From NCBI GenBank assembly GCA_951406725.2, contig OX597838.1, positions 43,834,001 to 43,898,000 of the forward strand: a stretch of DNA of 64,000 bases, given 5' to 3'. This document shows, one piece after another, positions 4,430-54,369 of this stretch. Every line of letters starts with the position of its first letter. Positions within the stretch are counted from its first letter, which is position 1. Below the pieces are notes generated by a model. That model worked only from the letters and a program-made list of their open reading frames with translations, did not search any database and was not told the DNA's origin. The position numbers and the translations under genes are program-made. The DNA is from Octopus vulgaris (lineage: Eukaryota).

Positions 4430-5260
4430 TTCGAATTTTGGCAGAAATACCAGAAAGTTTGAGGGAGGTGGAAGTGGTTTACATGGACCCCAGTGCCCTA
4501 CTGGTACTTACTTTATCGACCCCGAAGGTATCAAAAGCAAAATCGACCTTATGGGAATTTGAACTCTATACATAAAAAAAACCGGAAGAAATTCCGCTAA
4601 TTATTGTGTCCGGCGCGGTAATAATTCTTTCCGTTCGCCGCCTCTTTGAATACCTGCATATGAACTTTGATGCCATTATTACTTTAGGATATAAAGGCGG
4701 CGAGCTGGGAGAATGGTTAGCACGCCGGGCGGAATGCGTAGCGGTGTTTCGTCAGCCTTCTTGATCTGAGTTCAAGTTCCGCCGAGGTCGACTTTGCCTT
4801 CCATCCTTTCGGGGTCGATAAATTAAGTACCAGTTACGCACTTGGGTCGATGTAACCGACTAGTCCCCCCCCCATATTTCAGGCCTTGTCTCTTTAGTAG
4901 AAAGGATTATTAATTAAAGAATAAAAAGTTGGCGAGCTAGCAGAATGGTTAGCGGTATTTCATCTGTCTTTGCGTTCTGCGTTCAAATTCCGTCGAGGTC
5001 GACTTTGCCTTTCACCCTTTCGGGGTAAATAAATTAAAGTACCAGTCAAGTACTGGGGTCAATATGATCAATTTACCTCCTCCTCCAAAATTTCGGGCCT
5101 TGTGCCTACAGTAGAAAGGATTATTAAGGATATGCTGGCATGCCGGACAAAATGCTAAGTGGCATTTTTTCCGGATTTAAGTTCTGAGTTCATATTCCAT
5201 CAAGCCGGGGTCGGTGAAATAAGTGCCAGTCGAGGTATTGTGCTTTTCAGTAGAAAAGAT
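4430..5260. mobile_element. Cluster of SINE family B copies (one minus strand, about three plus strand)
   Basis: Head ggcggcgagctggcagaa..gttagcacgccgggcgaaatgc, B-box gagttcaa.ttcc, core ccatcctttcggggtcgataaattaagtaccag, tail ...gtagaaaggattatta. Other copies at 3360-3545, 10190-10360, 29703-29862, 36803-36925, 42029-42240 and 51137-51300. Confidence 0.8.
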
Positions 5261-12383: not shown

Positions 12384-14245
<1,862 letters not shown>

Positions 14246-16146: not shown

Positions 16147-16468
16147 TTATATATATATGTATATTTTATTGTAATTTATTTTTTTATTTATTTATTCTTA
16201 TCTTATAATACTTTTTATCTTATATTAAACTTTTAAATACTTTTTGATAGTTATATATACTCTTTCACTCTTTTACTTGTTTCAGTCATTTGACTGCGGC
16301 CATGCTGGAGCATCGCCCTTAGTCGAGCAAATCGACCCCGGGAAATATTCTTTGTAAGCCCAGTACTTATTCTATCGGTCTCTTTTGCCGAACCGCTAAG
16401 TGACCGGGACGTAAACACACCAACATCGGTTGTCAAGCAATGCTAGGGTGACAACCACAGACACACAA

Positions 16469-16521
<53 letters not shown>

Positions 16522-16671
16522 CATATATACGACAGGCTTCTTTTCAGTTTCTGTGTACCAAATACACTCACAAGACATTGGTCGGCCCGGGGCTATAGCA
16601 GAAGAATCTTGCCCAAGATGCCACGCAGTGGGACTGAACCCAGAACCACGTGGTTGGTTAGCAAGCTACTT

Positions 16672-18841
16672 TATTTCAAAACATTTGCCATAAAGGCAGT
16701 ACACAGATTAAGTTAGCTTTGCGGGCTGGACAAGGACATTAATGAAGTGAATGATAATGAAAGAAAGATGATAAGGATGGGAGAAGACAAAAAGCGCCCG
16801 CCGACTTTCGCTTCTCTAAAACATTGTTCTTTTTAAAGATAAACACAAAACGAGGTATTAAACCTCTTACAATTTTTCCAATTTTTGGACTTAGCAGTCC
16901 ATTATTACAAAACGAGGTATTAAACCTCTTACAATTTTTCAATTTTTGGACTTAGCAGTCCATTACTAATAATAACAGTTCAATAATTACATATCGTCCT
17001 CGAAATAGCTTGTGCCCGCGCCCTCCACCATCAACCACGCCTCCCTCAGAACGTAATCAAGTTCCGAGTTTGCGTTGCCCGGGACCAAGTTATAATCTTC
17101 ATTGAGCTCCTTTAGCCCAAGCGTCACGTCGAACGCCACGGCCTCCACAGCTACCTGCGGAGGCCATTCGGGGTCCTGTGTGAAGGCTAAAGGTGCTCCC
17201 TTGTGGTGCTCTTCCATCACCTTTTCAATTTCACCTCCTCTATAGAAGAGGACCAATACGTTCAGTTCTTTCGTTGGCGGCACAGTTCCCGCCAACGGTA
17301 TTCCTTCTCTTGTCGGTGGCACAACCCCAACCGACGTAGTTCCGGGACATTCCGGTTCTATGTCACTGACAGCCGGCAATGTCCCGTTTTTCTTCCTCTT
17401 TTTCTTTTTTTTTCCCATTTCAACTGAGGGAGGGTGCGTCTCCTCCGTGGCCGGAAGATTCGCCTTCCTCTCCTCATCCCTATTATCCTTTGGTGAGCAC
17501 CCATTGTTGCTCACCTTCCTCTTTCGGCCTCTGTTTGAGGAGTCCTCTGCTTTCTCGGCCGTTATCATTCCCTCTTCTAGAGGGGTTTTACTTAACTGTT
17601 CCGGGATCCTATTTTGTTCCCGGGGACAGTTCTTCTTTATGTGGCCGGACTCCAAGCACCGATGACACTTAGGGGGGCGACCCTCAAGCATCACCGGGTA
17701 CCTGCACCCAGCCATTTTCAAAAAATCTGGAAGAACCAGATTGGCTGATTGGGTCCACAAGGTCAAAATTGCTTTTGACCCAACCCAAGCAGCCGCAGGA
17801 AGAACTTTTACATTAAGGAGCTTAGTTTCGCTGCCACCCAGACCCCGGCGGATAGTCTCCTCTATCCACTCGGGTTCTATGTCGGGTGGCAGCCCGCAAA
17901 TCCAAGTTTTCATCAATTTCTTTTTTTTGTACGTGGGTAGGAATAAGATTTCCTTACCCTCCAGGGGTTTGCTAGCAAATTTGCAAGCCTCTTCAGGGGT
18001 GTCAAATAGCAACCACACCGTTGCATATTTGACACCCCTGGAAATGAATTTAATTGTTGGCAAATACTCTTCCAACTCCTTTTCAATTGCCGTCTTTTCG
18101 AATAGGGCGATGGTGTCGAGTGCCTTGGAGTAGGTTCTCAACACCACCGTCCTATCTTCACGGTCTTTTAACCACTTTTTAGGCGGTATGATCTCCCATT
18201 CCAAAAGTTTGTTATTTTTCATTGCCATGTTTTTTTGTTTTTTTTTAAATGTATTCAAAATAAAATTAAAAAAGGAGAAGAAAAGGAAATCAGAAGAAAG
18301 TCACGGTGAAAAAGGGAGAAAGTCAAATAAAGTTAAAAAGAAAGTCAATAACACAGCAAAAACCGTCTGGCCATTCGGTACTCCCGGCCTACATTGAACC
18401 CAGAACGCCGCAACTGGAACACAACTTCCGCAAAAATTGGTGTAAAATTGGTAAAAATTGTTCAAACTTCGGAGGCAAAACACTCTCCTATATAGCAGTT
18501 TTCACAATTCTTAAAGTTCGTCACAGCACAATACAATTCTCATAATTAGGCGAGAAAAATATTCACTCAATTTATCGAAGACGGATACGCCCCCCAAAAA
18601 TTTTCACAATTCAGCGAGAAAAATATATTTGCCACATGTCGGCAGAATCAGAATTCTGAATCCAGTAGGACTTCCTGCCTGTAAAAAACAATCCTCAACA
18701 AAAACTCCCACTGGAACCAGAAAACAGAATCTTACCTTACATGGGGCTTCCAAGATTTTCAATTCAAGACGGCTTCAAAAGCACGTCTTCACCGCTTCAG
18801 TGCCAAACACACCACTGACTCGCACATGCGCAGAAGCAACT
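16672..18841 (-). mobile_element. ORF1-only non-autonomous L1/Tx1-type element, copy 1 (2170 bp, 15 bp TSD)
   Basis: TSD gttagcaagctactt at 16657-16671 and 18842-18856. Structure: ~600 bp 5' UTR, single ORF, ~310 bp 3' UTR ending in AATAAA. No RT or endonuclease. Confidence 0.85.
16987..18222 (-). CDS. Tx1/L1-type ORF1p (gag-like nucleic-acid-binding protein with one CCHC zinc knuckle), ~411 aa, intact
   Basis: CHRCLESGHIKKNC (CX2CX4HX4C) preceded by EGRPPK, an RRM-like N-terminus and a Lys-rich NLS-like tract. The start ATG chosen is the one conserved in copies 2 and 3 (MKxxxxLEWEIIPPK). Confidence 0.85.
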   Translation of the reverse strand: MKNNKLLEWEIIPPKKWLKDREDRTVVLRTYSKALDTIALFEKTAIEKELEEYLPTIKFISRGVKYATVWLLFDTPEEACKFASKPLEGKEILFLPTYKKKKLMKTWICGLPPDIEPEWIEETIRRGLGGSETKLLNVKVLPAAAWVGSKAILTLWTQSANLVLPDFLKMAGCRYPVMLEGRPPKCHRCLESGHIKKNCPREQNRIPEQLSKTPLEEGMITAEKAEDSSNRGRKRKVSNNGCSPKDNRDEERKANLPATEETHPPSVEMGKKKKKRKKNGTLPAVSDIEPECPGTTSVGVVPPTREGIPLAGTVPPTKELNVLVLFYRGGEIEKVMEEHHKGAPLAFTQDPEWPPQVAVEAVAFDVTLGLKELNEDYNLVPGNANSELDYVLREAWLMVEGAGTSYFEDDM

Positions 18842-19178
18842 GTTAGCAAGCTACTTACCACACAGCCACTCCTGCGCCTATATATCTAATAAAAATGAAT
18901 AAATAAATAAATAACAACAAAAAAAATATATATAAATTAATAATTTTTAATTTTTAACTTTAAATTTAGAATTTTATATTTTATATTTTTTGTATATTAT
19001 ATTAATTTTATTTCTATGTTTTGGTTCATGATTTTCACTGTTTGATTTGCCTAATAGTGGTTTTATCTCTAATTTATATATATATTTATACTGTAAAATT
19101 AGATTTAATCCTAAATCTAATTTTTCCCTGTAAGTTTGGATTTACTCCATAATATTACTATTATATATATATATGGAT

Positions 19179-19221
<43 letters not shown>

Positions 19222-19537
19222 TCTTTTACTCTTTTACTTGTTTCAGTCATTTGACTGCGGCCATGGTGGAGCACCGCCTTTAATCGAGCAACTCGACCCC
19301 GGGACTTATTCTTTTGTAAGCCCAGCACTTATTCTATCTGTCTCTTTTGCCGAACCGCTAAGTAACGGGGACATAAACACACCAGCATCGGTTGTCAAGC
19401 AATGCCAGGGGCACAAACACAGACACACAAACACACACACGCATACATATACATACATATATATGGATATTATATGTATATATGTCTATTGATCTCACGC
19501 ACACATACACACGCACCCACATGTAACTATATATTCA

Positions 19538-21042: not shown

Positions 21043-22406
21043 GAACTAGGCATGCCGTGGTTGATGATGCGCAGACACGCGCTGAGACTGCGACATCTCA
21101 TGCTCTTCGTAGACGACGGTGAACAGGTGTGGTCGCCGTTTGTGGGGCACGCTTTCCCGCAGCTCGTCTCTATGACCGAACTGCAGTCGTGGATCAAAAA
21201 GAGGCCGAGGAAGGGCGAATGGCACCGCGAGTGTCGCGTTGCTCTCATGCAACTCTGCTGTCCTGGGTCGACCTTGAGTGACTCCATCACAACCAAAGCA
21301 TTCTATAGGGGATTAGTGGAGGGGAGGTACGACGACGAGCTCGGGGCGAACCTGGACGTCGACGAGGAATACCTGACCCGCCTGTTCGGGACGACTTTCG
21401 GGCCATGGCCCATGGATAACCTCCAGAGATCCTTGGCCTGGCAGTGCTACCGAGAAGCGTTACCCGTTCGGGATAAGCTCTACAGACACGGCTCGAGAAA
21501 CACGGGGCCGACCTGCCCAAGATGCGGTCAGAGCGACGAAACCGTTCTGCACGCACTAGTGCAGTGTCCAACAATTTCCGACCTGTGGGCTTATGTCGAA
21601 CAACTGCTGTCACGTGTGGGACGAGTCGGTTTATGAGCTGAGTCTATCGTTAATATTGTCACGCCTCCTTCCTTCAAACGGGAAGGAAGAGCTATTTTCA
21701 TCATCCTTGTGGCTATGGCGAAAGAATGTGTCTGGTGGACACGTCTGAAAGGATTGGAGACAAACACTTTCCTCTCTGGTCAATCTCTCATCAACTTCTT
21801 CAAGTACCACTTGAAAAGGAAAGTGAGAGTAGAGAGGCAAGTTTTGTCTAGCGAATGTTTTAAAAAAAGATGGTTGAATGTAGCAAGAATGGCACGTATG
21901 AATGACGAGGCCACCTTGAGCATAATCCTATGAACCCAGAAATTGAAAACAGAGGGTTACCCACTTGCAAACAAATGTGGTAACATATAACAATATTGAC
22001 CAAGGTTACCGTGGTCTTTTTCGTAGGCTTTTCTTCCCACGGATAAACCTTACTTGCTTTCCCCTTTACACCATATATCATGACACTGTGATACACGATC
22101 CCTATTGATCGTTTTTTTCCCTCTTCCCCATTTTTCCTCTTTTTTCTTCTTTTTTCCTTTTACTTTTCTTTTGTTTCTTTTCCTTTTTCCTCTTTTTTCT
22201 TCTTTTTTCCTATTTCTTTTCTTTTGTTTCTTTTCCTTTTCTTTTCCTTTTTTCTCCCTTTTACGATCCCTTTTGATCGAAAACCTACGCCACATTTTTT
22301 TTATTCTTTTGTTTTTTGTTTTTTGTTTTTTCATCCCCCAAAAGAAAAACTCTACCTTGTAATTTGTCCCATCTGTGTGCAGCCCTGTGTGGCCAATAAA
22401 GAAACT
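21043..22406 (+). mobile_element. 5'-truncated Tx1-clade LINE (ORF2 C-terminus plus 3' UTR) inside a (TATC)n tract
   Basis: Highly similar to ORF2 from 53018 onward, including the CPRC..ETVLHALVQC zinc motif. Premature TGA at 21634. AATAAA at 22395. (TATC)n lies on both sides (20947-21042 and 22407-22566). Confidence 0.9.
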
Positions 22407-23669: not shown

Positions 23670-26015
23670 TTATTTCCTCAGATTTGCCATAAAGACATTA
23701 TAAAGATGGAAACAAGTGTGGCGGGCTGGACAATAACACAAATGAGATGAAACGATGAACGACATAATGATATTAATGTGAGAGGCAAATCGACGCCCGC
23801 CGGTCAACCCCCGCCCTCGGTAACAACGTACTTCTTTCTTTTTTTCTTTTTTTGAAACAAAAAAACAAACAGCAACACAAAGGAAATAATGAACCTCTAA
23901 CATTAACATCAATCGAGGCACTAAGCCTCTTATCAATCTATATTGTTCATGAGGTAACAAACCTCTACACTGTTCACAATATTCAATAAAAATTCAAAAA
24001 CAAAATGAGGCGCTAAGCTTCTTTCCTTTCTTTCCAAGCTCGGAACTTTCAATAACACTGAAGCTTTTCAACCTCTTATCATTATTCCTCCTCAACATCG
24101 CTTGTGCCCGCATACTCCGCCATCACCCACGCCTCATTCAAGATTAAAACGGGTGCCGTATCGGCGTCGCCCGCCCACAAGTGATATTCCTCATTGAGTC
24201 CCTGCAGCCTACACATCACGGGCAACGTTATGACCTTCATAGCTATTTGCGGACGCCATTCGGAATCCTGTGTGAAGGCTAAAGGTACTCCATTATGGTG
24301 CTTTTCAACCACATTTTCTACCTCTCCGCCTCTATAGAAGAAGACCAATAATTCGTCTTCTTCCGGGGGCAGGATATCCAATTCTACTGTTGGTGGCAAA
24401 GTTCCCGCCAACGGTGTCTCTTCTTCTGCCGGTGGCACAACCCATACCGACGTGGTTCCGGGACATTCCGGTACTATGTCACCGACTGCCAGAAATGTCC
24501 CGTTTCTCTTCTTCTTCCTCTTTTTTTCTTTTCAAATGAGGGGGGTGTGCGTCTCCTGCGTGACCGGAAGATTTGCCTCCCCTTCCTCATCCCTAGGATC
24601 CTTCGGTGAGCATCTATAACTGTTCCTTCTTTGAGGAGTCCTAAGCCACCTGGGCTGCCTTCATTCCCTCTTCTACAGAGGACTCAATCAACTGCTCAAA
24701 GAGCTTACTTTGTTCTGGGGACAGTTTTTATTTATATGGCCAGGCTCCAGGCACTGATGACACCTGGGGGGGGGGGGTGACCCTCAAGAATCACCGGGTA
24801 CCTGCACCCGGCCATTTTCAAAAAATCTGGAAAAGCCAGATTGGCTGATTGGGTCCAAAGCGTCAAAACAGCTTTTGACCCAACCAAATCAGCCGCAGGA
24901 AAAACTTTCATATTAAGGAGCTTGGCTCTGCTGCCACCCAGACCCCGGCGGATACTCTCTTCTATCCACTCGGGTTTTATTCCGGATAGCAACCCGCAGA
25001 CCAAACCGCTTGTCAACCTCTTCCCACAATACGTGGGAAGAAACAAAATTTTTGCCCTCTAAGGGCTGGGTCGCAAATTTGCGCGCTTCTTCAAGGGTGT
25101 CAAATAGCAACCACACCGTTGCGTATATTACTCCCTCCCTGGAAATGAATTTCATAGTTGGTAGATACTCTGCCAACTCCTTTTCAATTACAGTCTTTTC
25201 AAATAGGGCGATGGTATCCAGCGACTTAGAGTAAGTCCTCAACACCACCGTCCTCTTCACGGTCTTTCAACCACTGTTTGGGTGGTATAATTTCCCACTC
25301 CAAAGCATTGTCTTTTTTCATTGCAATGTTTTTATTTAACAGTTCGAAAATAGTTCAAAATAAAACTTAAGAAGAGAGAAGAAAAAGAAAGAAATCAAAA
25401 GAAGGTCACAATAAAATGGAAGGAAGAAAAGGAAAACAAATCACGAATAATGAAAGTCAAAAAAGGTTTAGAAGAAAGAAAGTCAATAGTTCAAAAACAC
25501 AGAAAAAAATTTCCCCTTCCACTAGGTACTCCCGGCCAAGGCCGAATCCGGAATCCCACAACTGGAACACAACTTCCACAAAAACTGGTATACATGTCGT
25601 TCAATCTACCGCGGCAAAGACACTCCCCCAAAACAGCAATTCTCACAATTATTTCAAAAATTCACAAAAAGTGAACAAATTTTTAGGACTCCCCCAAGTA
25701 ACAATTCTCACAATTGAGAAAAATATTCACTTAACATGAATCACTATTTTGGACCGGGATACGCCCCCAAACAATAATTCTCACAATTAAGTGAGAAAAA
25801 ATATTCACTCCTCTGCAGGCAGACTAGAGTTTAGAATCCTGTGAGGACATCTTTCTTGTCCAAAAAATAACAAACTTCCACTGGACCCCCCCAAAACAAG
25901 AGTCTTACCTTACAGCAGAGCTTCGAAATTCTTCAATTCAGGACGGCTTCAAAAGCACGTCTTGACAGCTTCAGTGCTTCAGTGCCAAATACTACACTGA
26001 CTCGCACATGCCCAG
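23670..26015 (-). mobile_element. ORF1-only element, copy 2 (frameshifted ORF1), in a degraded SINE A head
   Basis: TSD tgggaagcaagcttct (23654-23669) and tgggatgcaagcttct (26016-26031). ORF1 pieces at 24082-25320 are homologous to copy 1. Confidence 0.85.
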
Positions 26016-26228
26016 TGGGATGCAAGCTTCTACCACACAACCATACCTGTAAATATGCATGTAGATATATGTATATATAGGCACAGGAGTGGCTGTGTGG
26101 TAAGCACCTTGCTTACCACACAGCTTGCTTCGTGGCTCGTTGGGAGAGTGTCTCCTCCTATAGCCTCGGGCCGACCAAACCCTTGTGAGAGGATTTAGTA
26201 GACAGAAAATGAAAGAAGCTCGTCGTAC

Positions 26229-27942: not shown

Positions 27943-28614
27943 AAATAAAGGAAGAAACAAATACTTGTACGACGTTAGTGCATTAATTAGCAATTTGAAG
28001 CGACATTCTTCATAGACTCTGGTGGCACATATCGGAATTATAGTGTAATATAACTATCAAAGACATGTCTATAAACGATACAAAATAAACATATGAGAAA
28101 CTTCCCATCCAAATATCATAAATTTACGGAGAAGATAGAAGCATGTAATAAGTTTAGTATATTAATTACAAAACAGAGACGGTGTTTATTACATCCTGAA
28201 TATATATTTGGGCAAACACAACTGAATTATATTCCAGTGTCTCTGCTGATGTGTCTGGTGACGTGAAAACAAAAGCGACAAATTTACATTTACAGCATTT
28301 ATATTGGTTCATGAGTGGCTACGAGGTTAAAAACCCACTTTGGAACCATGTCGCTTCGGGTTCAGTATTACTGCGTGGCATTTGGCAAATGAAGTAGACT
28401 GACATGTAATTTTTGAACTTGTGGAAGGCGCGCTAGTTGCCGAAATATCGTCCAACCAATTTCTCATGATAAGTATGGCACTCTTTTATTTATTTCTCCA
28501 TCATCATTATCATCATCATCATCATCATCGATGATGATGATGATGACGATCGAGTCATTGCGTTTCCTTTTCCTCTTTTGCAAACAGTCAAATTTATCTC
28601 GATCACACTGCATA

Positions 28615-29030
28615 TAGTCTTTTACTCTTTTACTTGTTTCAGTCATTCGACTGTGGCCATACTGGAGCACCGTCTTTAGTCGACCAAAACGAATCCAAGA
28701 CTTATCCTTTGTAAGCCTAGTACTTATTCTATCGGTATCTTTTGTCGAACCGCTAAGTTACGGGAACGTAAACACACCAGCATCGGTTGTCAAGCGATGT
28801 TGGGGTGGGGAGGGACAAACAGACACACAAACATATACACACATACATATATATATATACATATATATGACGGACTTCTTTCAGTTTCCGTCTACCAAAT
28901 CCACTCACAAGGCTTTGGTCGGCCCGAGGCTATAGGAGAAGACAATCTCCCAATGTGTCACGCAGTGGGAATGAACACGAACCATGTGGTTGGTAAGCAA
29001 GCTGCTTGCCACACAACCACTCCTACGCCA
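28615..29030 (-). mobile_element. SINE A, near full length
   Basis: Head-to-tail similarity to the other SINE A copies. Confidence 0.8.
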
Positions 29031-29502: not shown

Positions 29503-29904
29503 ATATGTATGTATGTATATATGTATGTATGTATGTGTGTATGTATGTATGTATGAAAGTATATACACATATACACAAGTATCTGTGTGCATGTGTGTTT
29601 TTGTGGTTTGTGCCCGTGTTTGTCTTTCGCAATAGCTAAAAACTGTTTTTAGTTTGTTTACGTGACTATAGCTAAGCTGTTCGGTAAAAGCGACCAATAG
29701 AAAGGCGGCGAGCTGGCAGAAGCGTTAGCACGCCGGACGAAATGCTTAGTGGTATTTCGTCTGTCTTTACGATCTGAGTTCAAATTCCGCCAAGGTCGAC
29801 TTTGCCTTTCATTCTTCCGGGGTTGTCGACAAATTAAGTGCGAGTTGTGTACTGGGGTCGATTTATTATTATTATTATTATTATTATTATCATTATTATC
29901 ATTT

Positions 29905-31223
29905 ATTTTCCTTCTTTCTTCAAAATTTCCCCCGTTTCTCGCCGAGTGTTTTCCGTACACCTAAGGCAGAGAAGCTCATTGTATGCATTCCCAGATTACA
30001 CACGAAAATTCACAGGTAAAATATGTATTTAAAAAAAATTAATTAATAAATAAATTCATGAATGGATGTTGTTTTCACAGCAATAATGCTCTTCTCAGTA
30101 CATGAGCCGTTCCAGTTAACACGATTTTTTGCACTTCCTGTAGGGATGGTAAGCCTGGTATCATTTTCAAATTGGTTTCAGTACCTTTTTTAATCATTCC
30201 TAGAGATCCTATAATCACTGGTCCTGTAGTCGCCTTGAGATGCCACATTTTTTCAATATCTATTAACAAGTCTTTATATTTACTGATCTTGTCAAATTCT
30301 TTCGCCGCTATATTGTGATCGCAAGGAATACTCATGTCAATTAATAAACACATCTTTTTTGTCCGATCTTTTATAATAATATCCGGTTTATTATCTTTTA
30401 TAGTTTTGTCGGTATGTGCGGGGAAGTCCCATAGAATCGACACATTATCTTCCTCAGTCACAACTTCAGGATGGTGTTTATACCATTTGTCAGCGGATTT
30501 GATTTTATAATGCCGACATATTGTCCAGTGTAAATACTGGCCGACTCTGTCATGTCTTGTTTTATATTCTACAGGTTCTAAGACTCTACACCCTGAGATT
30601 AGGTGGTGTATAGTTTCAATCTCATCGTTACAGAATCGGCATTTTGGGTCAGCTCCATTTTTTATCACATTGGCTTGGTAGTTCCGGGTTAATAAGCTTT
30701 GGTCTTGAGCAGCTAATATGAAACCTTCACTCTCTGCTTTTAGCCCTGAGCTTCGTAAACATTGGTGCGTGTGTTTCTGGTCGACATCAGCTTGTTTGCA
30801 ATTAATTTAACTTTCTTGGCAGCTGCAGTTGGTGCATTTCCTTCAACCTGCTCAATCTGGTGGTATCTAAAAGATCAATAGCGAATGTTTTGCTCACTTT
30901 CAGAATAGAGTGAAGTTTTTTCAGTCTTTTATGTTTTTCAACAAGTTTTAGCATTCAATCGTTGGTTGCTTCCAGGTATTTGGCCAGTCCGATTGTGGTG
31001 GTTTTGTATGTAAATTCAAGCTGGATCAAGCCTCGACCTCCCTGAGCTCTGGGAAGGTAAAGACGATCCACGTCTACCTTTGAATGGTGCATCTTATTAC
31101 AAGTTAGTAGCTTGCGGATTTTTCTGTCAATTTTCATTATTTCACTGGTATTCCAGTTAAGCACATTGAAATTATAAAGAACAACTGGGACTGCTAAGGA
31201 ATTTATGGCTAACACCTTATTAT
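29905..31223 (-). mobile_element. 5'-truncated R4/Dong-clade LINE (thumb, CCHC, RLE)
   Basis: CRFC...ETIHHLISGC, RHD, ILWDF, KPDIII, IDMSIP, KISKY and PVIIGSLG motifs. The 3' end runs into (TAA)n at 29864-29905. Confidence 0.85.
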
Positions 31224-32583
31224 TCTATGTTTGACTTTTGCTTTACATTTGCACAAGTTGGTTCCAAGTCTCTCCCAGAGACCTCAAGAGACAACAAGTT
31301 GGAAGTTCATGTTGGTGTTATGCCTAGGGTGCCATATATTTGGTTCTGTACATAGTTTTGTACTAGTAAATGTCTAAAAAACCATATGAAAATTATGTGT
31401 TTGTTTTAAAGCTTGAGATTACATAGAAAGTATTTTGCGTAGGATATGAGCAGTTCCCATGAGCACTATCTTTTGAATTTCTGCCATTTTGGAGTTTCCT
31501 GACATCTGAGTTAGGCAGCAATCAGCCCCTTTTGCTATCATTCCCAGGGCACCTATGACAACTGGTATTGTTTTAGTCTTCAGGTTCCACATTTTGCTGA
31601 TTTCTATTTCAAGATCATTATATTTGCTCAGTTTTTGGTAGGTCTTGACAGATACGTTTATATCGATTGGGACAGTCATATCAATGAGGAGGCATGTTTT
31701 TTGTCTGAAGTCTTTTACTATGATGTTTGGCCTATTCACGTCTATCTTTCTGTCAGTTTGAATGGTGAAGTTCCAGAGGTGTGAGATGTGATCATTTTCA
31801 AGCACTAGAGTTGGTTTGTGTTCCCACCAGTTTTTATCATGGGACAAGTCCAGTGAATATATAGTGCAGCTCTATCATGCCTGTTGAGATACTCTGTAGG
31901 TGCAAGAAGACTGCACTCGGAGACAACAAAATGGTTTCATTTTGTTGTTGACATACTCGACATGTTGGGCTACTGCCGTTCTTCTATATGTTGGCCTGGT
32001 AGTTCCTTGTAGGTAGGCATTGATCTTGAGCTGCTATGATAAACCCTTCTGTTTCAGATTTTAAGCCAGAGGCCATTAGCCATTAATGGGTCAGGGCTTT
32101 GTCAACATCTGCAGTATTCGCTCTCTTTGGGTATTTGCCATTGAGAGGTTTTTCTTGCTATTTATCATTCAGAATATCTAAGGCAGCAGTTTTAGCACGG
32201 GTTTTCATGCGCTTAGCTTTTTCTGTGTTTGTTTCTTGTATGTCTAATTCCGAAATTTGTTGTATTCGGAATTCACTTAGATATTCCATTGCCTGTTTTG
32301 TTACTGAGTATGATGCTTTCTTGTTTTCATGTTTTGAGACAAGTTTTAACATCCAGTCCGCAGAGTTTCTCAGGTAGGTGTCTAGGCCAATTGTAGCAAC
32401 CTTCATTGTTATTGCCAGTTGTAAAAGCCCACGGCCTCCCTCTTTTCTTGGTATATAAAGTCGATCAGTATCTGCCTTAGGGTGGTGCATTCTATGCATT
32501 GTCAGCAGTTTTCGTATTTTTCTGTCAAGATTACATATTTCAGTAATTGGCCAGTTAACGATATTGAAACTGTAAGTCACGAC
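31222..32583 (-). mobile_element. Second, divergent 5'-truncated R4/Dong-clade LINE, head-to-tail with the first
   Basis: DRLYIPRKEGGRGL, IDMTVP, KLSKY and PVVIGALG motifs. (TAA)n lies at its 5' flank (32585-32619) and the tail reads aataataa. Confidence 0.85.
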
Positions 32584-32619
<36 letters not shown>

Positions 32620-32942
32620 GGTTTCCTGACTGGCACCAACTGAATAGATTTTCAGATCGATCCGGTACCAGACAAGGATTATGGATTAGTGTGCCTGTTT
32701 TTTGTACTTAATTTTTGAGAGCGGTTGGATTCATTTTTAGCATTCTCATTTATGAGAGCAAGAGTTTATTTCAGATATTCTCATTTTAAAAATCATCTCA
32801 GGCTAATCGTGGACAGGACTTTAATGTTGCCTTGGCGGAGGTTTGCGCTCTCTGAGTGCTCTTGTTACTATTATTATTATTATTGTTGTTGTTGTTATCA
32901 TAGGCGCAGGAGTGGCTGTGTGGTGAGAAGCTTGCTTCCCAA

Positions 32943-34293
32943 CTGCGCATGTGTGAGTCCGTGTTGTGTTTGGAACTGAAGCTGTAAAGACGTGCTTTTG
33001 AAGCCGTCTTCAATTGAAGAATTTTGAAGCGCAGCTGTAAGACTTGTTTTTTGGGTCCAGTGAGGGTTTGTTGTTTGCGGTAATTATTTTTGTACAAGCA
33101 AGACATCGTCACTGGATTGTAAACTCTAGTCTGTCTGCAGAGGAGTGAACATTTTTTTCTCACTTAATTGTGAGAATTATTGCTTGGGGACGTATCCCGC
33201 TTCCAAATTAGTGGTTCACGTTAAGTGAATATTTTTTCTTAATTGTGAGAATTGTTACTTGGGGGAGTCCTAGAAATTTGTTCACTTTTTGTGAATTTTT
33301 GAAATAATTGTGAGAATTGCTGTTTTGGGGAAGTGTCTTTGCCTCCGAAGAATGAACGACTTGTATACCAGTTTTTGTGGAAGTTGTGTTCCAGTTGTGG
33401 CATTCCGGGTTCGGCCTTGGCCGGGAGTACCTAGTGGAAGAGGAAATTTTTTTTCTGTGTTTTTGAACTATTGACTTTCATTATTCGTGATTTGTTTTCC
33501 TTTTCTTCCTTCCATTTTATTGTGACCTTCTTTTGATTTCTTTCTTTTTCTTCTCTCTTCTTAAGTTTTATTTTGAACTATTTTCGAACTGTTAAATAAA
33601 AACATTGCAATGAAAAAAGACAATGCTTTGGAGTGGGAAATTATACCACCCAAACAGTGGTTGAAAGACCGTGAAGAGGACGGTGGTGTTGAGGACTTAC
33701 TCTAAGTCGCTGGATACCATCGCCCTATTTGAAAAGACTGTAATTGAAAAGGAGTTGGCAGAGTATCTACCAACTATGAAATTCATTTCCAGGGAGGGAG
33801 TAATATACGCAACGGTGTGGTTGCTATTTGACACCCTTGAAGAAGCGCGCAAATTTGCGACCCAGCCCTTAGAGGGCAAAAATTTTGTTTCTTCCCACGT
33901 GGGAAGAGGTTGACAAGCGGTTTGGTCTGCGGGTTGTTATCCGGAATAAAACCCGAGTGGATAGAAGAGAGTATCCGCCGGGGTCTGGGTGGCAGCAGAG
34001 CCAAGCTCCTTAATATGAAAGTTTTTCCTGCGGCTGATTTGGTTGGGTCAAAAGCTGTTTTGACGCTTTGGACCCAATCAGTTAATCTGGCTTTTCCAGA
34101 TTTTTTGAAAATGGCCGGGTGCAGGTACCCGGTGATTTTTGAGGAGCCTGGCCATATAAAGAAAAACTGTCCCCAGGACCTTATGAAGGCGGCCGAAGAG
34201 GCGGAGGACTCCTCAAAGAAGGGCCGCAAAAGGATGAAGGTGAGCAGCAATGGGTGCTCACCGAAGGATCCTAGGGATGAGGAAGGGGAGGCT
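32943..34293 (+). mobile_element. ORF1-only family, copy 3 (3' part lost), directly after a SINE A head
   Basis: SINE A head ggcgcaggagtggctgtgtggtgagaagcttgcttcccaa (32903-32942) is joined to ctgcgcatgtgtgagtc... The copy is near-identical to copy 2 over ~33180-34140. Confidence 0.85.
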
Positions 34294-35489
34294 TTTCTGA
34301 TGCTATTGTAATAACACACAAGCACACAATACCTCAACGCAGACAATACACAAACACGCAACATGTATAAACATACGCAACACGCATAGACGAAGATAAC
34401 TTTCGCCCACATGCACTACATACATGCACACTATTTAGTCACAGACACACATACACAGATGCACGCACCACCTGAACAAGCACGCATTATCTCCTACACA
34501 CGTCCATACGTACACACACACACAAACACACAAACTCGCCCCCATTCACTCATGCACATAGCCTCTATGGCGGGAAGCCTAGAGTAACCATATAAACCGG
34601 TCTCGATCACTAATAAATATAGACTGCTCTACTTCTTAGAGTGTACTTCTCCGGATGTATGTTTTTCTAAAAAAAAAAAAAACGATTACACACACACACA
34701 CATTCATAAACCCCGCCCCACACCATATATATACGGGCTATTTCAGTTTTGGTATGAGAAATCCTCTCACATGACGTTTCGAAAAAATTGAATGTAAGCA
34801 AATTTCTGCGTAGGCGTGGGTGTGTGATTAAGAGGTTTCCTTCCTTACCGCATGGTCAGTCCCACAGAATAGCACCTTGGGCAAATATGCTTACTGAAGC
34901 CTCAACCCTAGTTATACTGTGGCAGAGAAAATTGAAGATAACTTTTGGATAAGCTTTAGTCGCAGATTTAGCATGCTAAAAGTGGAACTAAAAAACTACA
35001 TTCTTTTGAGAACTAACAAAGTCATTTATATATCATCTGTAGTTAAGACGCTCGCCTCGCAACTCCATGGCTTAGAGACCAATGGCTTTGTAGGAGAGTC
35101 ACGCAGCTTGTAAGTGAAATCTGACATGAAAGAAATTGTGTGCGGTGGGGCGTCGAGGGGAACAATTTTGTTGACTTAATATTTGCTCAGTTTAACTCAA
35201 CCTCTTGGTTTTTGGATTATTTTAGTGGAGTTCACGCTGAGATCTGAACAAAACCCCCTCCCCTCCCCCCATAATTCGTGGAGGCCCTAGAAACATTTCC
35301 TTTGCTGCATTTCCTTCATTTGCAAAATCATTAAATTTATACGAAAAAGGGTCCTGCTCGAATTTGGGTCTTTCCAATTCTTTTTAGTAAAATAGTTTAT
35401 CCTTCATTGCATACTTTTCTTAATTACTAACTGCAGACGCGCGCAATCACCATAGTCTCTTCCAGAATATTCTGTTTGCGTGTAAAATA

Positions 35490-44358: not shown

Positions 44359-44425
<67 letters not shown>

Positions 44426-44564
44426 GACGGGCTTCTTTCAGTTTCCATCTACCAGATCTACTCACAAAACTGGTCGACCCGAGGCTATAATTGAAGACAC
44501 TTGCCCAAGGTGCCATGCAGTGGGACTGTACCCGGAACCATGTGGTTGGAAAGCAAGCTTCTTA

Positions 44565-44795
44565 TTTCTTTATTGCCCACATGGGGATAAACATAGAGAG
44601 GACAAACAAGGACAGACAAACGGATTAAGTCGATTACATCGACCCCAGTGCGTAAATGGTACTTAATTTATCGACCCCGAAAGGATGAAAGGCAAAATCA
44701 ACCTCGGCGGAATTTGAACACAGAACGTAACGACAGAAGAAATACCGCTAAGCATTTCGCCCGGCGTGCTAACGTTTCTGCCAGCTCGCCGCCTT
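44565..44795 (-). mobile_element. SINE B with Tx1-like 3' tail inserted in a SINE A head (10 bp TSD)
   Basis: TSD aagcttctta at 44555-44564 and 44796-44805. The host SINE A spans 44420-44828. Confidence 0.85.
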
Positions 44796-44956
44796 AAGCT
44801 TCTTAACACACAGCCACTCCTGCGCCTATACAACCACAAATACATACATACATACATACATACATACATACATACATACATACATACATACATACATACA
44901 CATACATGCATGCATATATATATATATGCTTGTGTGAGTGTGTGTATGTGTGTGTC

Positions 44957-47908: not shown

Positions 47909-47946
<38 letters not shown>

Positions 47947-47950
<4 letters not shown>

Positions 47951-48608
47951 AAAATTAGAGAATGGAGAAACATACTTAAATCAGTAAAACATCAACTATC
48001 CGATGATACTCAATCCATACTTTAATACACCATTACATATGAGTAAAGGCAATATATAAAATGAAATGAGATATACAGTAATAGTAAAAAGATAAAGAGA
48101 TATAAGTAAAAAATTTCAAATATAATATGCAAATAAATCAAAACTGACAGCTGTTTCGGCAGTGAGGACAGTCATACCTCATTTAACCTATAAGCCATAA
48201 AGGCAGGTATAAATGAGGCATTAACAAGGATGCCCCACGGCCTCTTCAGAGAATTAAATTAAATTTGTTATAATAGTGAAAAATATTATATAATCATATA
48301 CATATAAATATAAAAATATAAAAATGTAAAATATAAAAACTTATACATCATAATGCTACACTTATATAATATAATACACATTTGTACAAAAAAGGAAGGT
48401 AAACAGAACAAAATAAAACAAAATATATAACAGTGTATATATTAATATTAATAAGTACCGATATTATACATATTTGGCTAATAGTTTTTTTTAAAAAAAA
48501 GGCTAACACATATGGAGATGAAAAATAATAATTAAATCCGTGGTACAGTTCATAAAGTTCTAAAGCTATAAAAGTTAATAAAAATTACTATTAATAATAA
48601 TAATAATA

Positions 48609-48652
<44 letters not shown>

Positions 48653-49328
48653 TAATAAAAATAGATACAGTTAAGTTAGCACCAAGTCCATCCTTTCAAG
48701 ATCGAAATAACTTCCTTTTGTACAAATGTGTATTATATTATATAAGTGTAGCATTATGATGTATAAGTTTTTATATTTTACATTTTTATATTTTTATATT
48801 TATATGTATATGATTATATAATATTTTTCACTATTATAACAAATTTAATTTAATTCTCTGAAGAGGCCGTGGGGCATCCTTGTTAATGCCTCATTTATAC
48901 CTGCCTTTATGGCTTATAGGTTAAATGAGGTATGACTGTCCTCACTGCCGAAACAGCTGTCAGTTTTGATTTATTTGCATATTATATTTGAAATTTTTTA
49001 CTTATATCTCTTTATCTTTTTACTATTACTGTATATCTCATTTCATTTTATATATTGCCTTTACTCATATGTAATGGTGTATTAAAGTATGGATTGAGTA
49101 TCATCGGATAGTTGATGTTTTACTGATTTAAGTATGTTTCTCCATTCTCTAATTTTGTAGTATTAATTTACGGTAATATTATTACCTTTACCCATATAAT
49201 ACAATAGATGAACTGATTGTTTGACAATTTTTAACATCTATGTATTAATTTTGTTGGGTACCTATCTAGCAGTATATTGGATATATATTATCCCATGGTG
49301 GGTTGAATTTTCAACCCCTTATCTCATT

Positions 49329-51130: not shown

Positions 51131-51309
51131 TACATACGGCGGTGAGCTGGCAGAACCGTTAGCACGCCGGGCGAAATGCGTAGTCGTATTTCGTCTGCCG
51201 TTACGTTCTGAGTTCAAATTCATCTTTTCGGGGTCGATAAATTAAGTACCAACACTGGGGTCGATTTAATCTATGTTTAGCCCCTTGTGGGAAATGAAGC
51301 ATATATAGG

Positions 51310-51341
<32 letters not shown>

Positions 51342-51520
51342 CTCTTTTACTTGTTTCAGTCATTTGACTGCGGTCATGCTGGAGCACCGCCTTTAGTCGA
51401 GCAACTCGACCCCGGGACTTATTCTCTTTGTAAGCCCAGTACTTATTCCATCGCTCTCTTTTTGCCGAACGTAAGCACACCAGCGGGGACGTAAACACAC
51501 CAGCATCGGTTATCAAGCAA

Positions 51521-54369
<2,849 letters not shown>

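What the first reader, a model, noticed from the sequence alone, without database searches (positions are those of the whole stretch)
44555..44805. A SINE B copy with a Tx1-derived tail hits the same SINE A target site
Seen: this SINE B is inserted at the same 3' junction (within 1 nt) and orientation as the ORF1-only elements, with a 10 bp TSD. Its tail ccttgtttgtcctctctatgtttatccccatgtgggcaataaagaaa aligns with the Tx1 LINE end ccttgtaatttgtcccatctgtgtgcagccctgtgtggccaataaagaaa (22356-22404, also ~54157-54199). Known: shared 3' tails mark SINE-LINE partnerships, mostly for L2, CR1 and RTE. Inference: a Tx1-mobilised SINE that inherits target preference.
Basis: partly seen in the sequence, partly recalled or inferred. 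Interest (0 to 1): 0.82.

Follow-up and report, generated by a model that had tools for sequence, protein, structure and literature searches.

The report
Octopus SINE with Tx1-like LINE tail
A short, common octopus jumping element carries the end of a Tx1-like retrotransposon, a pairing rarely seen in animals, and this copy sits at a spot inside another repeat that a second passenger element also uses, but most copies with this end sit elsewhere.

Summary
An octopus tRNA-type SINE (44565-44795, minus) with an exact 10-bp TSD sits in the head of SINE A, within 1 nt of the 3' junction used by the ORF1-only elements. Its last 42 nt match the ends of two L1/Tx1-group LINEs (33 of 42 identical; 0 of 5000 shuffles). 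The tail is high-copy in public runs. So a borrowed Tx1-like tail, and mobilisation by such an ORF2, are likely. Inherited target preference is only partly supported. The two LINEs with the matching tail end in (TATC)n, not SINE A. The second tail-type copy in the window lies in (TA)n. In one raw RNA run at most about 15% of tail reads can continue into the SINE A site, while 26% run into another SINE B head. The site is still a real hot spot: 4 of 16 SINE A heads are filled there. Best reading: a promiscuous passenger of several octopus Tx1-like families, one of which (not seen here) cuts SINE heads. Target inheritance has a precedent (crocodilian SINEU with Tx1-Mar). A shared Tx1 tail was not found in the papers searched.

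The parts
44565..44795 (-). SINE B copy, full length: tRNA-like head with A-box- and B-box-like motifs, shared body, LINE-like tail
   Evidence: box patterns recalled; ARAGORN and Rfam give no tRNA hit
44565..44627 (-). Tail that replaces the other SINE B tail type; the last 42-47 nt (44565-44611) are homologous to the LINE 3' ends and hold a 3-4 bp hairpin followed by AATAAA
   Evidence: other tail type branches off at 44628 (table 7)
44555..44564 (+). Target site duplication, copy at the element's 3' end
44796..44805 (+). Target site duplication, copy at the element's 5' end
44796..44826 (-). Host SINE A, 5' piece of the tRNA-like head (A-box region); the insertion is just behind the A-box-like motif
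44424..44564 (-). Host SINE A, remainder (B-box region and body)
21043..22404 (+). 5'-truncated L1/Tx1-group LINE with the matching 3' end, flanked by (TATC)n on both sides
51521..54199 (+). 5'-truncated L1/Tx1-group LINE (RT plus zf-RVT, open frame 51475-53898, no endonuclease part), matching 3' end, followed by (TATC)n; 5' boundary approximate
16672..18841 (-). ORF1-only element (ORF 16987-18228, 413 aa, CCHC-type knuckle, no RT) at the same SINE A site; 15-bp TSD 16657-16671 and 18842-18856
23671..26016 (-). Second ORF1-only element at the same site; exact 10-bp duplication, about 14-15 bp with one mismatch; 5' boundary approximate
32942..34310 (+). Third ORF1-only element, 5' junction at the same site, 3' end missing; boundaries approximate
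51137..51299 (+). Second SINE B copy with the LINE-like tail, internally deleted, lying in (TA)n and not at the SINE A site

Best explanation
A subfamily of octopus SINE B swapped its tail for the last 45-60 nt of an L1/Tx1-group LINE, probably by template switching (inferred). Its Pol III transcript is bound at this tail by ORF2p of one or more Tx1-like families and copied by target-primed reverse transcription (inferred from tail homology and the TSD). The site depends on which ORF2p picks the RNA up. One family, not present in the window, nicks the SINE A head just behind the A-box and also carries the ORF1-only elements. This copy used that site. Other copies went to microsatellites or to SINE B heads. 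The SINE therefore shows a partial, mixed preference, not a fixed target. Shown: tail homology, TSD, shared junction, hot spot, high copy number of the tail. Inferred: the enzyme, the direction of tail capture, the existence of a SINE A-targeting autonomous family.
For: Tail versus LINE ends z 8.4-9.8, 0 of 5000. Three majority alleles seen in public runs (44582, 44587, 44599) raise identity from 33 to 35 of 42. Three copies of the other SINE B tail score z at most 1.9 against the same LINE ends. ORF2 scores 224-269 bits against six fish proteins named TX1 or pol-like versus 165-167 bits against human L1 ORF2p and 76 or less against R2 over the same part. End-anchored, the ORF1-only tails also resemble the LINE ends (z 3.0-5.2, 0-34 of 5000), so the three element types share one kind of 3' end. 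4 of 16 SINE A heads covering the site are filled at the same point; chance per insertion about 3.8e-4, 0.005 over all 13 SINE B copies. One 109-nt contig in run X1 spans the same SINE A-tail junction with 16 differences, probably a second locus (table 8). O. vulgaris has 80 L1-Tx1 families, 13 recently active (PMC13282606).
Against: No autonomous LINE at the SINE A site was seen. The best-matching LINEs target (TATC)n. The SINE's tail is closer to those LINEs than to the ORF1-only tails (local z 1.7, 2.0; anchored z 1.5, 3.3). TSD is 10 bp versus about 15 bp. Tail type versus site is not significant in the window (p 0.15). SINE B 5' ends also join the same SINE A position in the opposite orientation in 10, 15 and 11 contigs of three runs, so the site may attract insertions in general. 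The shared hairpin is weak (3 pairs, -2.4 kcal/mol, 1 pair with a two-sided change). Tx1 clade membership rests on score comparison, not on a tree with L1 references.
Confidence: 0.55

Rival explanations
1. Strong inheritance: the tail-type SINE is carried by one target-specific Tx1 family and goes mostly to the SINE A site.
For: Same junction and orientation as the ORF1-only elements; low chance probability; a likely second junction contig; precedent SINEU-3 with 90% of copies beside one target (PMC4494074).
Against: At most 738 of 4987 tail reads (15%) in X23 can bridge into SINE A, and 1280 (26%) join a SINE B head. The second copy in the window is in (TA)n. X23 is RNA, about 6% of the run was read, and the species may differ from the window's.
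Confidence: 0.1
2. The tail is LINE-derived, but the site is a general hot spot: the SINE A head forms a hairpin and offers TA/AGAA microhomology to the tail end, so any element with this kind of end lands there more often, without a dedicated endonuclease.
For: The target folds as a DNA hairpin in 4 of 4 empty heads tested (-2.6 to -7.4 kcal/mol, no shuffle control). Opposite-orientation SINE B junctions at the same position. The tail end overlaps the target by 2 nt here and by 4 nt at the SINE B head junction. TSD lengths differ.
Against: 3 of 3 ORF1-only elements use the site with matching 5' junctions about 15-16 nt from the first cut, which looks like a sequence-specific enzyme. None of the 11 other SINE B copies or other repeats in the window was seen there.
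Confidence: 0.25
3. The (TATC)n-targeting family alone carries the SINE, loosely in trans, and this copy hit the SINE A site by chance.
For: Best tail match is to the (TATC)n LINEs.
Against: Chance 0.005 even over all 13 SINE B copies; a second junction contig in X1, though it could be the orthologous locus in another species; neither tail-type copy in the window is in (TATC)n.
Confidence: 0.07
4. The tail similarity is convergence of low-complexity sequence around a polyadenylation-like AATAAA, and the SINE has another partner.
For: The aligned stretch is short and T-rich.
Against: 0 of 5000 shuffles; top two non-self hits in the window; gap-free 33 of 42 at the exact 3' terminus; majority alleles move towards the LINE.
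Confidence: 0.03

Closest known systems
SINEU with Tx1-Mar in crocodilians (Kojima 2015, PMC4494074; read parts 1-4 of 5)
   Same: A SINE inferred to be moved by Tx1-clade ORF2, sharing a preferred site inside another transposon; preference ranges from 13% to 90% by family.
   Different: SINEU has U1/U2 heads, poly(A) ends and no detected LINE-derived tail; the target is a Mariner. Here the head is tRNA-like, the tail is shared with the LINE, and the target is the head of another SINE.
SINE/LINE pairs with a shared 3' tail in the L1 clade: ZmSINE2/3 with LINE1-1_ZM, SINEX-3_CR with L1-1_CR (Ohshima 2012 PMC3472496, part 1 of 3; 2013 PMC3747384, passages and Table 1)
   Same: About 45-50 nt shared 3' end with a hairpin, read as stringent recognition.
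   Different: Those are the only 3 of 58 listed pairs with L1 tails, all in plants or algae; the table lists no Tx1 partner and no mollusc.
Microsatellite-targeting Tx1 families Kibi (TC)n, Koshi (TTC)n, crocodilian (TTCC)n/(TTTC)n families (as described in PMC4494074)
   Same: The window's LINEs sit in a microsatellite, one with the repeat on both sides.
   Different: Repeat unit is TATC; ORF2 is only 33-36% identical to the fish Tx1-named proteins.
HAL1 (half-L1), ORF1-only non-autonomous L1 derivatives (cited in PMC4494074; details recalled)
   Same: ORF1 without ORF2, LINE-like 3' end, TSD.
   Different: The octopus ORF1-only elements use one site in a SINE head (3 of 3 in the window).
SINE superfamilies that swap tails (MetaSINEs, CORE-SINEs; Nishihara 2016 PMC4824008, passages) and octopus OR1/OR2/OK SINEs (Ohshima and Okada 1994, not read)
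   Same: One head and body with alternative tails; tRNA-derived octopus SINEs are known.
   Different: Partners named there are CR1 and L2. Whether SINE A or B equals OR1, OR2 or OK could not be tested.

Membership tests
tRNA-derived SINE | Short, high-copy, non-coding, with TSD | tested here: met
   231 bp, 13 copies or fragments in the window, 250,000-480,000 contigs laid per DNA run on the 412-bp stretch including SINE A, 10-bp TSD
tRNA-derived SINE | Pol III A and B boxes in a tRNA-like head | tested here: inconclusive
   Box-like motifs found with recalled patterns; no tRNA hit by ARAGORN or Rfam
SINE/LINE pair with shared 3' tail | Significant similarity at the exact 3' termini | tested here: met
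SINE/LINE pair with shared 3' tail | Conserved stem-loop with compensatory changes | tested here: inconclusive
   3-pair consensus hairpin, 1 pair with a two-sided change, 6 sequences
SINE/LINE pair with shared 3' tail | Tail needed for mobilisation in trans | not testable with these tools
   needs a retrotransposition assay
L1 group LINE (partner) | RT plus C-terminal zinc motif, closest solved relative L1 ORF2p; relatives carry an APE endonuclease | tested here: met
   the window copies are 5'-truncated and lack the endonuclease
Tx1 clade (partner) | RT groups with Tx1 families rather than other L1 lineages | tested here: inconclusive
   224-269 bits to TX1-named and pol-like fish proteins versus 165-167 to human L1; no tree with invertebrate L1 references; closer relatives (45-52%) are unnamed
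Tx1 clade (partner) | Target preference | tested here: met
   2 of 2 copies end in (TATC)n, one has it on both sides; small sample
Target-inheriting SINE (SINEU type) | More than 20% of copies flanked by the target (criterion in PMC4494074) | tested here: inconclusive
   1 of 2 in the window; upper bound about 15% of tail reads in one RNA run, which points to not met but is transcript-weighted
Target-inheriting SINE (SINEU type) | An autonomous Tx1 family with the same target | tested here: not met
   In the window only ORF1-only elements share the site; no genome held; collection scans empty

The most novel reading that the evidence does not exclude
Octopuses have a Tx1-like machinery that aims at the tRNA-like heads of their most abundant SINEs. 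It cuts after TGG plus 1-2 nt in both SINE A and SINE B heads, and it carries two kinds of passenger by a shared 3' hairpin: ORF1-only elements and a tRNA SINE with a captured Tx1 tail. This would be the first tail-sharing, stringent Tx1/SINE pair in an animal, and a case of a SINE that homes into SINE promoters, including its own. The frequent tail-to-SINE B head junction would then be repeated targeted insertion, not one amplified dimer.
Probability: 0.25. Interest if true: 0.75.

Novelty: new variant of a known kind. Interest (0 to 1): 0.5.

Why it matters
L1-group LINEs rarely share tails with SINEs: 3 of 58 listed pairs, none in animals (PMC3472496, PMC3747384). A high-copy octopus SINE with a Tx1-like tail suggests that this lineage recognises a 3' RNA signal, which bears on whether stringent recognition is ancestral in the L1 group. 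The window holds one tail family on three element types with at least two targets, (TATC)n and a SINE head. That makes it a natural system for separating RNA recognition from target choice. It also explains some nested repeats in a genome that is about 12% SINE (PMC13282606).

Tried and rejected
No whole genome was held, so the genome-wide count could not be run. Pattern scans for the tail found 0 stretches in viral, metagenome and prokaryote-genome collections; a SINE B body pattern found 0 in viral contigs; ORF2 scans gave no confirmed locus in three collections; blastn of SINE B found nothing in plasmids or phages. These collections hold no octopus DNA as far as seen, so the blanks say nothing about the biology. 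ARAGORN and Rfam found no tRNA or other RNA family. The ORF1-only protein has no Pfam or NCBIfam hit; its relatives with a species name are octopus proteins, and the Atlas gives CCHC and ZCCHC3-type look-alikes at 0.89-0.93, a lead only. Whether it is the ORF1 of the LINE partner is untested, since both LINE copies lack their 5' half. The 3' UTRs of ORF1-only elements and LINEs do not align outside the last 40 nt. The other SINE B tail matched no LINE end in the window (z at most 1.9). Earlier findings of the scan: three look-ups, nothing. Literature searches for Tx1 with SINE, octopus or cephalopod, partner, tail and target found no report of this pair; Repbase, Dfam, SINEBase and subscription papers were not searchable, so an existing annotation cannot be excluded.

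Full report
Setting. The window is octopus DNA: the ORF1-only protein is 64% identical to an Octopus sinensis protein and the best named ORF2 hit is from Argonauta hians. No whole genome was held. Whether they equal the published OR1, OR2 or OK families was not testable.

The observation. SINE B occupies 44565-44795 on the minus strand, with an exact 10-bp duplication at 44555-44564 and 44796-44805. It interrupts a SINE A copy in the same orientation, just behind an A-box-like motif in the head (box patterns recalled). Two ORF1-only elements (16672-18841 and 23671-about 26016) have their 3' junction 1 nt away, and a third (from about 32942) has its 5' junction at the matching place. Their duplication is longer: 15 bp exact for the first, 10 bp exact and about 14-15 with one mismatch for the second. 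By my reading SINE A heads in the window cover the site; 4 are filled there and 12 are empty. A random insertion would hit such a site, within 1 nt and in this orientation, with probability 3.8e-4, or 0.005 over all 13 SINE B copies. The test is after the fact, but the site is clearly a hot spot.

The tail. The last 70 nt score 52 and 47 against the two LINE ends (z 9.8 and 8.4; 0 of 5000 dinucleotide shuffles each), and these are the two best non-self matches in the window. Over the last 42 nt, 33 are identical to each LINE. Public runs show that the tail is not private to this copy: it is covered in all four runs laid, and in raw RNA run X23 its depth is about 17% of the body's. Three majority alleles from those runs raise the identity to 35 of 42. 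SINE B has a second tail type that branches off at 44628; three copies of it do not match the LINE ends (z at most 1.9). The ORF1-only tails resemble the LINE ends more weakly (end-anchored z 3.0-5.2; local z 0.2-2.1). All six ends can form a small hairpin ahead of AAT, but the consensus has only 3 pairs, -2.4 kcal/mol, with one two-sided change. That is suggestive only.

The partner. The LINE ORF2 fragment has RT and zf-RVT domains; longer relatives add an APE endonuclease. It scores 165-167 bits against human L1 ORF2p and at most 76 against R2, and 224-269 bits, 33-36% identity, against six fish proteins named TX1 or pol-like. It is L1 group and Tx1-like; strict clade membership was not settled by a tree. 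The two copies are 82% identical over 1081 nt. Both end in (TATC)n, and the copy at 21043-22404 has the repeat on both sides, so this family aims at a microsatellite, like Kibi and Koshi (PMC4494074).

Evidence against inherited targeting. First, the LINEs with the matching tail use another target, and no ORF2-bearing element sits at the SINE A site in the window. Second, the other tail-type copy (51137-51299) lies in (TA)n. Counts are 1 of 2 tail-type copies versus 0 of 11 other copies and fragments at the site, p 0.15; versus the 6 with a clear other tail, p 0.25. Third, in X23 the depth at 44560 is 10958 reads; 8940 continue as empty SINE A and 1280 are tail reads that jump to SINE B position 44775. 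At most 738 remain, which is 15% of the 4987 tail reads at 44582, and the true share is probably lower. This run is RNA, about 6 in 100 of it was read, and it may be another species, so the bound is rough. The three contig runs were saturated and cannot be counted this way. Fourth, SINE B 5' ends join the same SINE A position in the opposite orientation in 10, 15 and 11 contigs; their tail type is unknown. Fifth, the TSD lengths differ.

Evidence for some preference. A 15% bound leaves room for strong enrichment: 1% would already be about 27 times chance. One 109-nt contig in X1 spans the SINE A-tail junction with 16 differences (table 8, where 24 of over 600,000 pieces are shown). It is probably a second locus, though an orthologous copy in another species is not excluded. 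The commonest named neighbour of the tail in X23 is a SINE B head clipped at 44775 (26% of tail reads, 195 start points; also 10, 15 and 24 contigs in the DNA runs). The contexts are alike: TGG plus 1-2 nt, then AGAA, in both heads. This may be a second target, or a single dimer that was amplified; the data here do not tell.

Mechanism. Most likely (0.55) the SINE captured the 3' end of a Tx1-like LINE and is copied in trans by ORF2p of several related families with different endonucleases. O. vulgaris has 80 L1-Tx1 families, 13 recently active (PMC13282606, passages and supplement search). One family would cut SINE heads and also carry the ORF1-only elements. The main rival (0.25) is a general hot spot made by a hairpin in the SINE A head and microhomology with the tail end. 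Strict inheritance (0.1), chance (0.07) and convergence (0.03) are less likely.

Comparison with the known. Kojima 2015 (PMC4494074, parts 1-4 of 5 read) inferred that Tx1-Mar moves SINEU from shared targets in a Mariner, with 13-90% of copies at the target and no shared tail found. So a SINE that takes on a Tx1 target is not new. Ohshima (PMC3472496 part 1 of 3; PMC3747384 passages and Table 1) lists 58 tail-sharing pairs, 3 with L1-clade tails, all in plants or algae, none Tx1. Tail swapping on a common SINE body is described for MetaSINEs with CR1 and L2 partners (PMC4824008, passages). Nine searches found no report of an octopus SINE with a Tx1 tail; PMC4758252 and PMC8967140 were seen as passages only. 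Repeat libraries and subscription papers were out of reach, and supplements other than that of PMC13282606 were not seen.

Verdict. Real, with a sound tail homology and a real hot spot. The link between tail and site is open and looks partial at best. New variant of a known kind; interest 0.5.

Noticed in passing
window 16672-18841, 23671-26016, 32942-34310: Three ORF1-only (HAL1-like) elements, 73-91% identical to each other, all at one site in the SINE A head. They are the stronger case of target specificity here; their autonomous partner is missing from the window.
   Followed up: partly
window 44559 to 44775 (joint): Tail end joined to a 5'-clipped SINE B in 1280 RNA reads and in contigs of all three DNA runs: second target or amplified dimer.
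   Followed up: partly
window 44564 to 44795 and 44796 to 44830 (joints): SINE B 5' ends joined to SINE A in the opposite orientation, at the hot spot and at the SINE A 5' end.
   Followed up: no
window 4694-5250: Head-to-tail array of three SINE B units with the other tail type; such joints (44795 to 44626-44628) are also in all three DNA runs.
   Followed up: no
window 16227-16671 with 18842-18878; 19188-19464; 28584-29029: SINE A appears to continue through a (TA)n(TG)n tract into a further repeat of about 250 nt on the same strand, so the two may be one long SINE; seen by eye and in repeat families.
   Followed up: no
window 29863-30806: A LINE fragment of another kind, ending in (ATA)n, is inserted in opposite orientation into the SINE B copy at 29702-29862 and cuts off its tail; related fragments at 31419-32685.
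   Followed up: no
window 51343-51520: The 5' end of the longer Tx1-like LINE joins directly to the 3' part of a SINE A-associated repeat, not to (TATC)n: template switch or deletion.
   Followed up: no
window 12650-14080; 47909-49198; 1-567: A 493-bp tandem repeat of near-identical copies, and long inverted repeats (483 nt at 96%, 188 nt at 98%), perhaps DNA transposons or assembly artefacts.
   Followed up: no
P0017 and P0005-P0120: A 63% identical ORF2 fragment is filed under a Herbaspirillum MAG, probably host contamination; many 40-50% relatives are unnamed proteins from metagenome assemblies.
   Followed up: no
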